This document shows positions 50,022 to 50,970 of a stretch of 64,000 nucleotides of DNA, one piece after another. The translations under genes and the position numbers were made by a program. The first letter of the stretch is position 1. Every line of letters starts with the position of its first letter. Under the pieces are notes generated by a model. The model had not been told where the DNA came from, did no database searches, and was given only the letters and a program-made list of their open reading frames with translations. The DNA is taken from the UHGV virus genome UHGV-2202118. One strand, 5' to 3'. The stretch is from a virus.

Positions 50022-50292
50022 ATGTCAATCTCCCATTAAATCTTTTTAGAGAACTTCTAAGAACCTAAGCAACAAGGTTCCACAACAAGCTGTAATAACC
50101 TTAGAAGCCCTCTAAAAAGACCTAAAAAGGTCTTTGCATAGTCTTGTTTAATCCGGTGACTAGAACCTTTGGAGAGCTTGATATTATCTCTTCTCCGTGA
50201 CACCTACTAGGTGCTTTACTGTGCGTGTACGACAATACACGAGGGATACCAAAGCAACATCCGAATGAAGCTTGGCTTTAAATCTTATTAGG

Positions 50293-50379
50293 CGGTAAGT
50301 AAAGGAGTCGAACCCTCACCGTATCTCTACAGTGGCAACTGTTTTCAAGACAGTTTGGCTACCATTAGCCGCTACCTAC
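50293..50379 (-). tRNA. tRNA-Ser(UGA), class II long variable arm
   Basis: Acceptor GGTAGGT/ACTTACC, anticodon arm ACTGT-CTTGAAA-ACAGT, long variable arm, T-loop TTCGACT; CCA not encoded. Confidence 0.65.
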
Positions 50380-50392
50380 CCCTAATAAGACT

Positions 50393-50475
50393 TTGGCATG
50401 GGACGGAGGAGTTGAACCACTTTGAAACGGTTTTGGAGGCCGTTGCTCATGCCTTAGAGTCTTAACATCGTCCCA
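50393..50475 (-). tRNA. tRNA-Trp(CCA), atypically long D region
   Basis: Anticodon loop CTCCAAA, T-loop TTCAACT, acceptor GTGGGAC/GTCCCAT, CCA encoded; D region and T-stem non-canonical. Confidence 0.45.
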
Positions 50476-50618
50476 CACTATAATTCGAAGCTTACCGTAT
50501 TATCTCAACACTGTAAAGCACCTTCTCAGATTATTTACATGTTCTGGAAAACATGAGATACAGACCACCTCCTTACACGGAGACCCGATAAGGTCGTCTA
50601 AGCAATCTGCTAACTAAA

Positions 50619-50695
50619 TTGGCACACCCTACAGGATTCGAACCTGTAACTAACGATTTAGAAGACCGTTGCTCTATCCAATTGAACTAAGGGTG
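50619..50695 (-). tRNA. tRNA-Arg(UCU)
   Basis: Acceptor GCACCCT/AGGGTGT, D-loop AATTGGATAG, anticodon arm ACGGT-CTTCTAA-ATCGT, T-arm ACAGG-TTCGAAT-CCTGT, CCA encoded. Confidence 0.7.
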
Positions 50696-50926
50696 CATTA
50701 ACATTTTAAAGGGTACTTATTGCATTTAAGCCAAGACCCATAAGGGATACCCTTTAGAGTGTTGCCCACATTATTAATCATACCGTGGGCGAGTACGCCA
50801 AATTCTTTGATGAGGGATTGGAAGACCTCACTGGTGTTTAGCCTATCAAGCTACTGCCAGAAAAACATTGTCGTTTGCATTTATTTTAAATTTGCAAAAT
50901 AGACGCTACGCAACGAAAACTAAGGT

Positions 50927-50955
50927 TACTATAAAGTAGTCACATCTCAATGTCA
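50927..50955 (-). promoter_or_regulatory. sigma70-like promoter on minus strand inside the tRNA array
   Basis: Minus strand TTGACA (plus 50950-50955), 17-nt spacer, TATAGT (plus 50927-50932). Confidence 0.5.
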
Positions 50956-50970
50956 ACAACTTTATTGAAA

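What the first reader, a model, noticed from the sequence alone, without database searches (positions are those of the whole stretch)
50040..50970. Three tRNA-free structured spacers in the array, one carrying an internal sigma70-like promoter
Segments 50040-50290, 50476-50618 and 50696-50970 have no ORF of 60 aa or more and no canonical tRNA, yet are rich in hairpins (for example GCCCAC...GTGGGC at about 50762-50788 and AAAGGGTA...TACCCTTT at 50706-50750). The last contains a minus-strand TTGACA, 17 nt, TATAGT promoter that would start a roughly 220-nt leader before tRNA-Arg. These are candidate small RNA genes or divergent tRNAs I could not fold by eye.
Basis: seen in the sequence. Interest (0 to 1): 0.5.

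Follow-up and report, generated by a model that had tools for sequence, protein, structure and literature searches.

The report
Headless tmRNA-like gene among phage tRNAs
One of the three tRNA-free gaps in this Felix O1-type phage's tRNA cluster is a gene for a small RNA that keeps the tag-coding, pseudoknotted half of the bacterial ribosome-rescue RNA (tmRNA) but has no tRNA-like half, and the same unannotated RNA turns up in hundreds of unrelated phages, prophages and phage-plasmids.

Summary
The three segments have no ORF of 60 aa or more and no canonical tRNA, and the minus-strand promoter is the best sigma70 match in the region.

The third spacer (50697-50971) is not a leader. It is a promoter-driven gene for a tmRNA-derived RNA. 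It has:
- an A-rich resume signal and a GCA resume codon;
- a 10-codon tag frame (ANDNVFLAVA);
- a stop codon inside a helix-5-like hairpin;
- two covariation-supported pseudoknots.

There is no acceptor stem or T arm: transcription would start at an invariant AGUUUUCGU.

Homologues occur in 630 phage records, 786 plasmids and 329 E. coli genomes, and I saw none annotated. ARAGORN and Rfam do not call them. All 24 distinct tag sequences keep 10 codons, with mostly third-position changes.

How a tmRNA without a tRNA-like domain works is unresolved. I favour a tag template that needs a tRNA-like partner supplied in trans. A decoy or antagonist of host tmRNA is the main rival.

The other two spacers are Ounavirinae-specific structured RNAs of unknown function. 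Next to spacer 2 lies a conserved non-canonical tRNA-Trp(CCA) that the tRNA finders miss.

The parts
50928..50956 (-). Sigma70-type promoter of the tmRNA-like gene: -35 TTGACA (50956-50951), 17-nt spacer, -10 TATAGT (50933-50928). The predicted start is A at about 50921.
   Evidence: Consensus scan gives 11 of 12 matches, the best in 49000-52600. It is conserved in Felix-like and Moogle-like relatives. An analogous TTGACA-17-TAGATT sits in front of the same RNA in Klebsiella phage KP591P1. This is a consensus match only; transcription was not shown.
50913..50921 (-). 5' motif AGUUUUCGU at the predicted 5' end. The core GUUUUCG is present in every member collected.
   Evidence: The core GUUUUCG is present in all 39 aligned members, in Hena2 and in the phage-plasmid L127. 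The member set was collected using this motif, so its invariance is partly by construction. It is complementary to E. coli ssrA tag codons GAC GAA AAC UA; the significance is uncertain.
50883..50900 (-). Pre-tag hairpin AUUUU-GCAAAUUU-AAAAU, followed by the A-rich resume context AUAAAU (50884-50879).
   Evidence: Read from the sequence. Other subfamilies have a hairpin CUUUG...CAAAG in the same place, though the alignment puts it in different columns. AUAAAUGCAAACGA matches the consensus of Rfam's permuted tmRNA model.
50846..50878 (-). Tag reading frame: GCA AAC GAC AAU GUU UUU CUG GCA GUA GCU UGA = ANDNVFLAVA*. There is no start codon; GCA is the resume codon.
   Evidence: All 24 distinct family sequences have 10 codons plus a stop. 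Extra alleles by codon position are 8, 6 and 18. The other two frames are broken. Compare E. coli ANDENYALAA.
50831..50860 (-). Helix-5-like hairpin (CUGG...CCAG with inner UAG/CUA) holding the stop codon in its apical part.
   Evidence: Covariation: the pair at A3 columns 89/112 is GC in 27 sequences and AU in 12. Outer helix cells are 100% paired.
50798..50830 (-). Pseudoknot A. Stem 1 is UGAGG/CCUCA (50830-50811). Loop CCAA pairs with downstream UUGG (50801-50798).
   Evidence: Three of 5 stem-1 pairs and 3 of 4 stem-2 pairs show compensatory changes (CCAA/UUGG, CCGA/UCGG, CCAG/CUGG, CUAG/CUAG). Cells are 99-100% paired.
50764..50797 (-). Pseudoknot B. CGUACU (50797-50792) pairs with loop GGUAUG. 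Stem 2 is GCCCAC/GUGGGC (50790-50764), with the conserved loop tail AUUAAUAAU.
   Evidence: Stem 1 has 2 pairs with compensatory change (CGCAC/GUGUG, CGUAC/GUAUG, CGGAG/CUCUG, plus CGUAG/CUAUG in Hena2). Stem 2 has at least 6 different complementary versions, read from the alignment.
50708..50755 (-). Stem module: AAAGGGUA...UACCCUUU enclosing CCCUUAUGGGUCUUGGCUUAAAUGCA. It is the last element before tRNA-Arg and probably forms the 3' hairpin of the mature RNA.
   Evidence: The same insert, with a covarying stem (GGUAAGAGCAUU / AGUGCUCUUAUC), lies directly upstream of the tag RNA in lambdoid-type viral contigs L023, L025, L190 and L196. Other Felix-likes have a plain 13-bp hairpin here.
50620..50696 (-). 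Canonical tRNA-Arg(UCU). RNase P cleavage at its 5' end would define the 3' end of the tmRNA-like RNA (inferred).
   Evidence: ARAGORN; Rfam tRNA 62.8 bits.
50477..50619 (-). Spacer 2 element: hairpins GACCUUAUCGGGUC (50595-50582) and CAUGUU-UUCCAG-AACAUG (50555-50538), among others. It matched only Ounavirinae.
   Evidence: The consensus fold shows almost no covariation here. Mooglevirus carries a 23-nt hairpin insertion in one loop. Folding z = -0.99. The blastn search found no match to this stretch outside Ounavirinae.
50394..50476 (-). Non-canonical tRNA-Trp(CCA)-like gene. It has a 7-bp acceptor stem, G73 and an encoded CCA. A 7-nt insertion UGUUAAG sits before a 3-bp D stem. It also has a C31.A39 mismatch and a T loop UUCAACU.
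   Evidence: Missed by ARAGORN; 21.3 bits on Rfam tRNA-Sec. Compensatory changes in the D stem, the anticodon stem (AACGG/CCGUU versus GUAAG/CUUAC) and the T stem.
50040..50290 (-). Spacer 1: four conserved hairpins (50276-50249, 50241-50224, 50213-50201, 50196-50171), a terminator-like AAAGACC-UUUUU-AGGUCUUUUU (50135-50114) and a long hairpin (50112-50049).
   Evidence: Folding z = -3.06. The consensus fold has 3 compensatory pairs. The element persists in relatives that lack the HNH gene. The 48-aa ORF is broken by 2-nt and 11-nt indels in Mooglevirus.

Best explanation
Spacer 3 (about 50697-50921, minus strand) is an independently transcribed gene for a tmRNA-derived small RNA, a 'headless tmRNA'.

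Shown by sequence and comparison:
- It keeps the mRNA-like half of tmRNA: an A-rich resume signal, a GCA resume codon and a 10-codon tag frame ending LAVA.
- Its stop codon sits in a helix-5-like hairpin, followed by two H-type pseudoknots.
- The promoter abuts an invariant 5' AGUUUUCGU, so there is no acceptor stem, no T arm and no CCA.

Inferred:
- The RNA runs from the promoter to the RNase P site of tRNA-Arg, about 225 nt, ending in the AAAGGGUA/UACCCUUU hairpin.
- Its tag frame is read by stalled ribosomes in a trans-translation-type reaction. This gives rescued proteins a phage-specified tag (A)ANDNVFLAVA instead of the host (A)ANDENYALAA.
- Because it has no tRNA-like domain, it must be brought to the ribosome by a partner supplied in trans. 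Candidates are the host tmRNA-SmpB complex or one of the tRNA-like RNAs that accompany it in many loci. This step is the least supported.

Spacers 1 and 2 are separate, Ounavirinae-specific structured RNAs of unknown role. They are probably cut out of the polycistronic tRNA precursor by the flanking tRNA-processing sites. A conserved odd tRNA-Trp sits next to spacer 2.

Confidence in the identity (tmRNA-derived, lacking a tRNA-like domain, conserved gene) is about 0.9. Confidence in the full mechanism as stated is about 0.4.
For: - Identity. Rfam's tmRNA models give the top two E-values when the spacer is scanned alone, though both are far below threshold (permuted tmRNA 14.8 bits, tmRNA 8.8 bits). 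They align AUAAAUGCAAACGA and the tag.
- Tag frame. 24 distinct sequences all have 10 codons plus a stop. They encode A-N-(D/E)-x-x-(F/Y/V/M)-L-(A/M)-(A/V)-A, with third-position changes dominating and the other frames broken.
- Structure. 22 pairs in helix 5 and two pseudoknots are 98.7% paired, against 28-47% when partners are slid. Eleven pairs show compensatory change, and 0 of 500 shuffles reach the covariation score.
- No tRNA-like domain. ARAGORN finds no tmRNA in the window or in about 30 family loci. It does find permuted tmRNAs in other viral contigs with similar tags. Rfam finds none in 8 loci. The only T-loop motifs in the window outside called tRNAs are at 50409-50417 and 51418-51426.
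- Own promoter. 11 of 12 matches in the window, and TTGACA-17-TAGATT in KP591P1.
- Selection and spread. 630 phage records, 786 plasmids and 329 of 5426 E. coli genomes carry it. A covariance model scores non-training members at 79-193 bits, against about 15 bits for true permuted tmRNAs.
- Possible partners. tRNA-like minihelix modules lie next to the tag RNA in roughly a third of the non-Felix family loci scanned. A D-armless tRNA-like with G3.U70 and A73 follows it in some Felix-likes.
Against: - No tRNA-like partner is universally linked. The window itself has only canonical tRNA-Arg after the gene. The tRNA-like modules elsewhere are variable, mostly lack alanine identity and lack CCA.
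- No conserved base-pairing between the tag RNA and those modules was found.
- I know of no precedent for a tag template that is not physically joined to a tRNA-like domain being used by ribosomes.
- Pseudoknot 1 and helix 2 of tmRNA are missing.
- Transcription, processing and tagging are all untested. The promoter is a consensus match, and the scan did not call one in Hena2 or in the phage-plasmid.
- Part of the tag-frame conservation overlaps helix 5, so RNA-level constraint contributes to it.
Confidence: 0.4

Rival explanations
1. Antagonist or decoy of host trans-translation. The RNA is not translated. It either mimics the mRNA-like and pseudoknot part of tmRNA to soak up factors that bind it, or uses its invariant 5' end as an antisense seed against the host ssrA tag codons. 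Either way it would block or redirect host tagging during infection.
For: - The 5' UAGUUUUCGU(U/C) is complementary to E. coli ssrA GACGAAAACUA (10-12 bp, duplex energy -13 to -15 kcal/mol). It sits exactly at the predicted 5' end, where sRNA seeds often lie.
- That target sequence (ANDENYALAA, GACGAAAACUAC) is widespread in gamma-proteobacteria.
- There is a precedent for a partial phage tmRNA acting as an inhibitor: the DS6A form that has only the tRNA-like domain inhibits tmRNA when expressed in E. coli (PMC4131195, PMC11915505).
- The absence of a tRNA-like domain fits a non-translated RNA.
Against: - The tag frame behaves like a coding sequence: constant 10 codons, third-position bias and conservative residues. 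A pure decoy does not need that.
- In KP591P1 the best seed duplex with ssrA lies elsewhere.
- Hosts with ANDETYALAA-type tags would mismatch the seed. That Salmonella has this tag is from my memory and was not checked.
- An 8-12 nt complementarity could be chance (my rough estimate is 1e-3 to 1e-2).
Confidence: 0.27
2. A tRNA-array accessory. The promoter simply drives the downstream tRNAs, and the structured stretch is a leader or processing spacer whose resemblance to tmRNA is a historical leftover.
For: - It lies directly upstream of tRNA-Arg and is probably co-transcribed with it.
- Many family members lie upstream of tRNA clusters.
Against: - The element is conserved where no tRNA was called within the fetched flanks: Kuttervirus bering, Sa179lw, and lambdoid prophages between the Q antiterminator gene and the holin gene.
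- Sequence, tag frame and pseudoknots are maintained across unrelated phage groups with compensatory changes. A mere spacer would not show that.
Confidence: 0.1
3. A non-functional relic of a once complete phage tmRNA gene, or a recombination scar that hitch-hikes between phages.
For: - Complete permuted tmRNA genes with very similar resume and tag sequences exist in other viral contigs. A truncated descendant is therefore plausible as an origin.
Against: - It is present in 630 phage records of several families, 786 plasmids and 329 E. coli genomes.
- It shows compensatory substitutions, a preserved frame and, in two phage groups, its own promoter. Decay would not preserve these.
Confidence: 0.05
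4. A small protein gene on the opposite strand, namely the 47-aa 'hypothetical protein' annotated in some relatives.
For: - An ORF at 50759-50902 (plus strand) exists and is annotated in Ro111lw, wV8 and JohannRWettstein.
- Open stretches of 29-59 codons occur on that strand in family members.
Against: - The open length varies from 29 to 59 codons and is interrupted in several members.
- The most variable sites are first positions of that antisense frame.
- Compensatory base-pair changes point to RNA-level selection.
- Most records annotate nothing here.
Confidence: 0.03

Closest known systems
Standard one-piece tmRNA (ssrA; Rfam RF00023)
   Same: - A GCA resume codon preceded by an A-rich AUA-containing signal.
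- A 10-residue AND...-type tag very like E. coli ANDENYALAA.
- A stop codon presented in a helix-5 hairpin, with H-type pseudoknots after the tag.
- 5' GUUUUCGU..GCGACUUUGCG resembles E. coli GGAUUCGACGGGAUUUGCG.
   Different: - No acceptor stem, no G3:U70, no T arm, no CCA, no helix 2.
- Pseudoknot 1 is replaced by a simple hairpin, and there are only two downstream pseudoknots.
- About 170-225 nt instead of about 360 nt.
- Rfam scores of 9-12 bits against a threshold of 47, and no ARAGORN call.
- My covariance model does not hit E. coli ssrA.
Two-piece (circularly permuted) tmRNA (Rfam RF04321), including phage-borne examples found here (L017, L045, L055)
   Same: - The resume region AUAAAUGCAAACGA is identical to the permuted-tmRNA consensus.
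- The tag is similar (ANDERFLMAA, ANDNAFLMAA).
- The RNA corresponds to the 'coding piece'.
   Different: - A real coding piece starts with GGGGCUGA, the 5' strand of the acceptor stem, and is preceded by an acceptor piece ending in ...CCACCA. Both are absent here.
- A promoter, or a stem module, occupies that place.
- The covariance model of the family scores true permuted tmRNAs at only about 15 bits.
Mycobacteriophage DS6A tmRNA that has only the tRNA-like domain (PMC4131195, PMC11915505)
   Same: A phage carries only one half of tmRNA. The DS6A form is reported to inhibit the host's own tmRNA, which gives a precedent for partial tmRNAs having a function.
   Different: It is the opposite half. 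DS6A keeps the tRNA-like domain and lacks the tag; this family keeps the tag and pseudoknots and lacks the tRNA-like domain.
Stable non-tRNA RNAs in the T4 tRNA cluster (species 1 and 2, rnaC/rnaD; from my own knowledge, not checked here)
   Same: Small structured RNAs of unknown function encoded between the tRNA genes of a virulent coliphage, presumably released by tRNA-processing enzymes.
   Different: I know of no tag reading frame or tmRNA similarity in those RNAs. No sequence comparison was made here.

Membership tests
tmRNA (standard, RF00023) | A tRNA-like domain: an acceptor stem formed by the 5' and 3' ends with G3:U70, a T arm and a 3' CCA. | tested here: not met
   ARAGORN gives no tmRNA in the window or in the family loci. 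There is no T-loop motif in 50697-50971. The promoter -10 box ends 6 nt before the conserved 5' motif.
tmRNA (standard, RF00023) | A tag reading frame without a start codon, beginning at a GCA (Ala) resume codon and ending in a hydrophobic ...LAA-like C-terminus plus a stop. | tested here: met
   GCA AAC GAC ... GCU UGA = ANDNVFLAVA*. All 24 distinct family sequences have 10 codons with third-position bias, and the other frames are broken.
tmRNA (standard, RF00023) | A stop codon presented in the helix 5 hairpin. | tested here: met
   CUGG...CCAG encloses UGA. The helix is 100% paired with one compensatory pair.
tmRNA (standard, RF00023) | Pseudoknots: PK1 upstream of the tag and PK2-PK4 downstream. 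| tested here: inconclusive
   Two downstream H-type pseudoknots are supported by covariation. Upstream there is only a subfamily-specific hairpin and no PK1. Whether the two are homologous to PK2 and PK3 was not shown.
tmRNA (standard, RF00023) | A long helix 2 joining the tRNA-like domain to the pseudoknot ring. | tested here: not met
   No covarying long-range helix links the 5' region to the 3' region.
tmRNA (standard, RF00023) | A score above the curated Rfam threshold. | tested here: not met
   RF00023 scores 8.8-11.9 bits and RF04321 scores 14.8-29.2 bits, against a threshold of 47. The 29.2-bit hit borrows the T arm of tRNA-Ile.
tmRNA (standard, RF00023) | Works with SmpB and is charged with alanine. 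| not testable with these tools
   This needs biochemistry. No smpB search of the phage was made.
Two-piece permuted tmRNA (RF04321) | An acceptor piece (T arm, 3' acceptor strand, CCA) upstream of a coding piece that starts with the 5' acceptor strand GGGGCUG. | tested here: not met
   Neither is present. Genuine examples (L017, L045, L055) show both. In the window the upstream T arm belongs to a canonical tRNA-Ile(GAU).
tRNA (for 50394-50476) | A cloverleaf with a 7-bp acceptor stem, D arm, anticodon arm with a 7-nt loop, T arm and CCA, detected by tRNA finders. | tested here: inconclusive
   The acceptor stem, G73-CCA and anticodon loop CUCCAAA are present, and the stems covary. But there is a 7-nt insertion before a 3-bp D stem, a C31.A39 mismatch and a T stem with mismatches in the window copy. 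ARAGORN gives no call and Rfam gives 21 bits.
Canonical tRNA (for the three spacers as given) | Any cloverleaf tRNA within 50040-50290, 50476-50618 or 50696-50970. | tested here: not met
   ARAGORN; Rfam at E<=10.

The most novel reading that the evidence does not exclude
A large, so far unrecognised family of phage 'headless tmRNAs' reprograms ribosome rescue. The phage supplies only the template-and-pseudoknot half. That half teams up in trans with a tRNA-like partner, either the host tmRNA-SmpB complex or separate phage tRNA-like minihelices. Stalled ribosomes in infected cells then append a phage-chosen tag (...LAVA, ...LMAA or ...LAAA) instead of the host degron. This would be a split, modular form of trans-translation not known from any cell.
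Probability: 0.3. Interest if true: 0.9.

Novelty: new variant of a known kind. Interest (0 to 1): 0.78.

Why it matters
[quoted passage not shown] Gene finders and the tmRNA database anchor on the tRNA-like part (PMC11915505), so a form lacking that domain is invisible to them.

This one is present in well-known phages (Felix O1 relatives, CBA120 and other Vi1-like phages). It is also in lambdoid prophages of E. coli and in phage-plasmids of about 105-125 kb in Klebsiella, E. coli, Salmonella and Yersinia.

If the tag is used, phages rewrite the fate of proteins from stalled ribosomes during infection. If it is a decoy, phages switch off a central host quality-control pathway. Either way it gives a concrete, easily testable handle on how phages deal with ribosome rescue. 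It also adds a missing annotation to more than a thousand public records.

More generally, 'spacers' in phage tRNA arrays can hold distinct RNA genes.

Tried and rejected
- Divergent tRNAs in the spacers: rejected by ARAGORN and Rfam.
- A permuted tmRNA that uses the upstream tRNA-Ile as its acceptor piece (Rfam RF04321, 29.2 bits): rejected. tRNA-Ile is a canonical tRNA scoring 62 bits. No 5' acceptor strand precedes the coding part. Unrelated family members have a protein gene or a stem module upstream instead.
- The Trp-like tRNA (T loop UUCAACU, as in E. coli tmRNA) as a downstream tRNA-like domain: rejected. It is a self-contained cloverleaf with its own acceptor stem.
- A search for a conserved base-pairing partner of the tag RNA among adjacent tRNA-like modules: only short helices rich in G.U pairs, and none conserved.
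- Full-length RNA duplex prediction against E. coli ssrA: uninformative. Only the 5' seed result is usable.
- The AUG in AUAAAUGCA as the start of a normal small ORF: rejected. That frame gives peptides of variable length and sequence.
- The opposite-strand 47-aa ORF and the 48-aa ORF in spacer 1: not conserved.
- Spacer 2 as a fifth copy of the CAGAAGACC...GGUCUGG modules: only a partial motif (AGACGACC...GGUCUG) with no paired flanks, so not supported.
- Ro60/TROVE identity of the neighbouring DUF2828 protein: no sequence hit in the Protein Data Bank. The single-sequence structure model was too poor to use (pLDDT 45), so I dropped it.
- Literature searches for a described tmRNA-like RNA lacking the tRNA-like domain in phages found nothing.
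Full report
**Context**

The window is part of a Felixounavirus (Ounavirinae) genome. The 49000-52500 stretch is 94-97% identical to Salmonella and Escherichia Felix O1-like phages and 84% identical to Citrobacter phage Michonne.

On the minus strand, a DUF2828/DUF7788/vWA protein gene (52462-53877) lies at one end and the large terminase gene (47199-48815) at the other. Between them sits an array of 15 ARAGORN tRNAs (49245-52296). An HNH endonuclease ORF interrupts the array (49569-50021).

**Checking the observation**

- None of the three segments holds an ORF of 60 aa or more.
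- None holds a tRNA by ARAGORN or by Rfam at E<=10.
- The promoter TTGACA-17-TATAGT at 50956-50928 (minus) matches 11 of 12 consensus positions, the best in 49000-52600.
- Spacers 3 and 1 fold better than all 200 shuffles (z = -2.92 and -3.06).
- The 143-nt spacer 2 segment does not (z = -0.99).

**What spacer 3 is**

A blastn search of the finding against phage genomes showed, unexpectedly, that about 50769-50887 matches unrelated phages at 72-83% identity with nothing annotated under the match. These include Kuttervirus (Ackermannviridae), 45-47 kb siphoviruses and a Vibrio phage.

Aligning six of them exposed an invariant AUAAAU GCA AAC GA. Read from GCA, the window gives GCA AAC GAC AAU GUU UUU CUG GCA GUA GCU UGA = ANDNVFLAVA*. 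This is close to the E. coli ssrA tag ANDENYALAA, confirmed on the K-12 ssrA gene.

When the spacer is scanned alone, Rfam's tmRNA models give the top two E-values. Both are far below threshold: permuted tmRNA at 14.8 bits and tmRNA at 8.8 bits, against 47. They align exactly this resume-plus-tag stretch.

**The tag frame is under coding-type constraint**

I collected family members from IMG/VR by two conserved 14-mers and from annotated phages, prophages and plasmids. This gave 24 distinct tag nucleotide sequences.

- All have exactly 10 codons plus a stop.
- They encode A-N-(D/E)-x-x-(F/Y/V/M)-L-(A/M)-(A/V)-A.
- Extra alleles number 8, 6 and 18 at codon positions 1, 2 and 3.
- The other two frames, including the one starting at the embedded AUG, are interrupted at varying places.
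- An opposite-strand 47-aa ORF annotated in some relatives is not conserved. The variable sites fall on its first codon positions.

**Structure**

On 39 distinct sequences (alignment A3), I tested a model with a helix-5-like hairpin that encloses the stop codon and two H-type pseudoknots. It has 22 pairs.

- 98.7% of cells are paired, against 28-47% when the 3' partners are slid by 1-3 columns.
- 11 pairs show compensatory change.
- 0 of 500 shuffles reach the covariation score.

Pseudoknot A is UGAGG/CCUCA, with loop CCAA pairing to UUGG. Across the family this second pairing appears as CCAA/UUGG, CCGA/UCGG, CCAG/CUGG and CUAG/CUAG.

Variants of that pairing are CGCAC/GUGUG, CGUAC/GUAUG, CGGAG/CUCUG and, in Erwinia phage Hena2, CGUAG/CUAUG. 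The hairpin stem itself has at least six complementary versions.

Upstream of the tag there is only a small, subfamily-specific hairpin.

**No tRNA-like domain**

- ARAGORN finds no tmRNA in the window or in about 30 family loci. It does call permuted (two-piece) tmRNAs in other viral contigs from the same scan that have similar tags: L017, L045, L055, L110, L011, L013, L019, L048 and L061.
- In those genuine genes the coding piece begins GGGGCUGA...GGUUUCGAC and is preceded by an acceptor piece ending CCACCA.
- The family described here starts at AGUUUUCGU. The place of the acceptor strand is taken by a promoter in Felix-likes and in KP591P1-like phages (TTGACA-17-TAGATT). In prophage-type contigs it is taken by the 3' strand of a stem module.
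- The tool did not call a promoter in Hena2 or in the phage-plasmid, although TTGACA-17-TAATCT is visible in Hena2.
- The only T-loop motifs in the window outside called tRNAs are at 50409-50417 and 51418-51426, neither in spacer 3.
- A covariance model of the family scores the window at 155 bits. It scores non-training members (a lambdoid prophage, Hena2, a phage-plasmid and others) at 79-193 bits.
- The same model scores true permuted tmRNAs at about 15 bits and gives E. coli ssrA no hit. The window has a single copy.

**Distribution**

The 164-nt module matches 630 phage records:
- Ounavirinae, including Kolesnikvirus;
- Ackermannviridae, such as CBA120;
- several siphovirus groups;
- Aeromonas and Vibrio phages.

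It also matches 786 plasmids, nearly all non-mobilizable replicons of about 105-125 kb in Klebsiella, E. coli, Enterobacter, Salmonella and Yersinia.

In E. coli it matches 334 places in 329 of 5426 complete genomes, 97 of them chromosomal. In both chromosomal cases I examined, it lies between the Q antiterminator gene and the holin gene of a lambdoid prophage.

None of the listed records annotates an RNA there.

Papers on related phages report no tmRNAs (PMC10508124). The tmRNA database pipeline relies on ARAGORN/Rfind hits (PMC11915505). Known phage tmRNAs are those of mycobacteriophages, Bacillus phage G and the DS6A form that has only the tRNA-like domain (PMC4131195). I found no paper describing a form lacking that domain.

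**The AAAGGGUA/UACCCUUU hairpin**

This hairpin (50755-50708) is itself a conserved module. Its insert CCCUUAUGGG(G/U)CUUGGCUUAAAUGCA recurs directly upstream of the tag RNA in lambdoid-type contigs. There it is closed by a different but complementary stem, GGUAAGAGCAUU/AGUGCUCUUAUC.

In non-Felix loci the tag RNA is embedded in arrays of such stem modules. Some of them contain a T arm and look like acceptor/T-arm minihelices of 58-97 nt without CCA.

**How it may work**

Shown:
- a conserved, structured RNA, preceded in at least two phage groups by a consensus promoter;
- an intact resume signal, tag frame, helix 5 and two pseudoknots;
- no tRNA-like domain.

Inferred:
- The window's RNA runs from about 50921 to the RNase P site of tRNA-Arg at 50697.
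- The tag frame is decoded, because it evolves like a coding sequence.

That requires delivery to a stalled ribosome by an aminoacylated tRNA-like partner. I could not identify a universal one.

- Some Felix-likes (L092, L102, wV8) replace tRNA-Arg by a D-armless tRNA-like with G3.U70, A73 and CCA, right after the tag RNA.
- Michonne and Hena2 have acceptor-plus-T-arm RNAs with inserts of roughly 90-135 nt nearby.
- Roughly a third of the non-Felix family loci scanned have a T-arm stem module adjacent.
- The window has none of these, and no conserved inter-RNA pairing emerged.

The invariant 5' end is complementary to E. coli ssrA tag codons 3-6: 10-12 bp, -13 to -15 kcal/mol. That target is common in gamma-proteobacteria. 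This could tether the RNA to host tmRNA or block host tagging. It could also be chance, or a leftover of the tmRNA D-loop region (GGAUUCGAC).

I therefore give about 0.4 to the 'template with a partner in trans' model, about 0.27 to a decoy or antagonist, and the rest to minor alternatives.

**Spacer 2**

The stretch 50394-50476 is a conserved non-canonical tRNA-Trp(CCA).
- It has a 7-bp acceptor stem, G73 and an encoded CCA.
- A 7-nt insertion precedes a 3-bp D stem.
- It has a C31.A39 mismatch.
- Compensatory changes occur in the D, anticodon and T stems between Felixounavirus and Mooglevirus.

ARAGORN and Rfam miss it.

It shows hairpins but almost no covariation. Mooglevirus has a hairpin insertion in one of its loops.

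**Spacer 1**

- It has four conserved hairpins, a terminator-like AAAGACC-UUUUU-AGGUCUUUUU (50135-50114) and a long hairpin (50112-50049) with a few compensatory pairs.
- It is kept in relatives that lack the HNH gene.
- Its 48-aa ORF is broken by indels in Mooglevirus.
- Its function is unknown. The overlap between the terminator's U tract and the long hairpin suggests alternative structures, but that is speculation.

**Verdict**

The substantive result is a new, widespread tmRNA variant that lacks the tRNA-like domain. Its gene fills the third spacer.

Noticed in passing
window 51352-52130 (minus): 52130-52053, 51964-51899, 51575-51497, 51489-51352: Four modules of the form NNNN-AGA-AGACC ... 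GGUCU-G-NNNN lie between tRNAs. Their outer 4 bp covary (UGAC/GUCA, UUGC/GCAA, GAGC/GCUC, UUAC/GUAA). The exact 9-mer CAGAAGACC occurs 5 times in the window, 4 of them here. The last module holds a circularly permuted tRNA-like domain: T arm, then an acceptor-like stem closed by a loop, then a D arm. Rfam gives it a partial tRNA hit of 22 bits at 51413-51463. This is the architecture described for bacterial YrlA Y RNAs, whose 5' motif GNCGAAN0-1G is similar but not identical (PMC4201824).
   Followed up: partly
window 52462-53877 (minus): The gene just upstream of the tRNA array encodes a DUF2828 + DUF7788 + vWA protein (Pfam). It falls in PHROG 850, 'RNA-binding protein'. Its layout, a helical N-terminal part plus vWA, recalls Ro60/Rsr, which would fit the Y-RNA-like modules next to it. 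I could not confirm this: there is no sequence hit in the Protein Data Bank and the single-sequence structure model was poor (pLDDT 45).
   Followed up: partly
window 49569-50021 (minus): An HNH endonuclease ORF (Pfam HNH, PHROG 10822) is inserted exactly between spacer 1 and tRNA-Leu. Sf14, JohannRWettstein and viral contigs L102 and L118 lack it, with the flanks otherwise unchanged. This is typical of a free-standing homing endonuclease in a tRNA array.
   Followed up: partly
L092 about 2140-2220; L102; L234 (phage wV8): In some Felixounaviruses the canonical tRNA-Arg(UCU) after the tag RNA is replaced by a 78-nt D-armless tRNA-like RNA, CGGGGCG...CGCCUCG-A-CCA. It has G3.U70 and A73, the alanine identity elements, but a UCU anticodon loop. 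ARAGORN does not call it. It could be a mis-charging tRNA or a tRNA-like partner for the tag RNA.
   Followed up: partly
L001 (Michonne) 3497-3613; L237 (Hena2) about 2585-2750: These RNAs have a 7-bp acceptor stem, a T arm and an encoded GCCA, but inserts of roughly 90-135 nt where the D and anticodon arms should be. They lie next to the tag-RNA gene and no tRNA finder calls them.
   Followed up: no
L004 2615-2860; L128 2860-3300; L035, L075, L077 and others: In prophage-type loci and 45-kb phages the tag RNA sits in an array of repeated modules. One type is CACAAC-AGGUAAGAGCAUU [variable 50-100 nt] AGUGCUCUUUCC-GUUGUG. Another is closed by GUUGUGGUG/CACCACAAC and has two hairpins whose loops are complementary (GGCUGAU / AUCAGC). 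Together these form a large unannotated multi-domain RNA locus.
   Followed up: partly
L017 7154-7563; L045 309-788; L055 5418-5839; L110, L011, L013, L019, L048, L061: Many IMG/VR viral contigs carry complete circularly permuted (two-piece) tmRNA genes by ARAGORN. Their tags include ANDERFLMAA, ANDNAFLMAA and ANDEVFALAA. Phage-borne two-piece tmRNAs seem commoner than the literature I read suggests.
   Followed up: no
window 50381-50390 and 50283-50292 (minus): tRNA-Ser(UGA) is bracketed by a 10-bp inverted repeat, UCUUAUUAGG ... CCUAAUAAGA. This extends its acceptor stem into the leader and trailer and may be a processing signal.
   Followed up: no
L003 (Salmonella phage bering) about 2690-2940: Downstream of the tag RNA in this Kuttervirus are three T-arm-bearing, tRNA-like elements that ARAGORN does not call. 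An example is CAUCUUUGAGGAC...CGGGUUCAAGUCCCG...GUCCUCAAAGAUG.
   Followed up: no
window 50909-50921 (minus) against L235 281-292 (E. coli K-12 ssrA): The 5' end of the tag RNA, UAGUUUUCGUUG, can pair with ssrA CGACGAAAACUA, which is tag codons 2-6 (12 bp with one G.U). Other family members keep 10-11 bp of this pairing. I could not tell whether this is meaningful or chance.
   Followed up: partly
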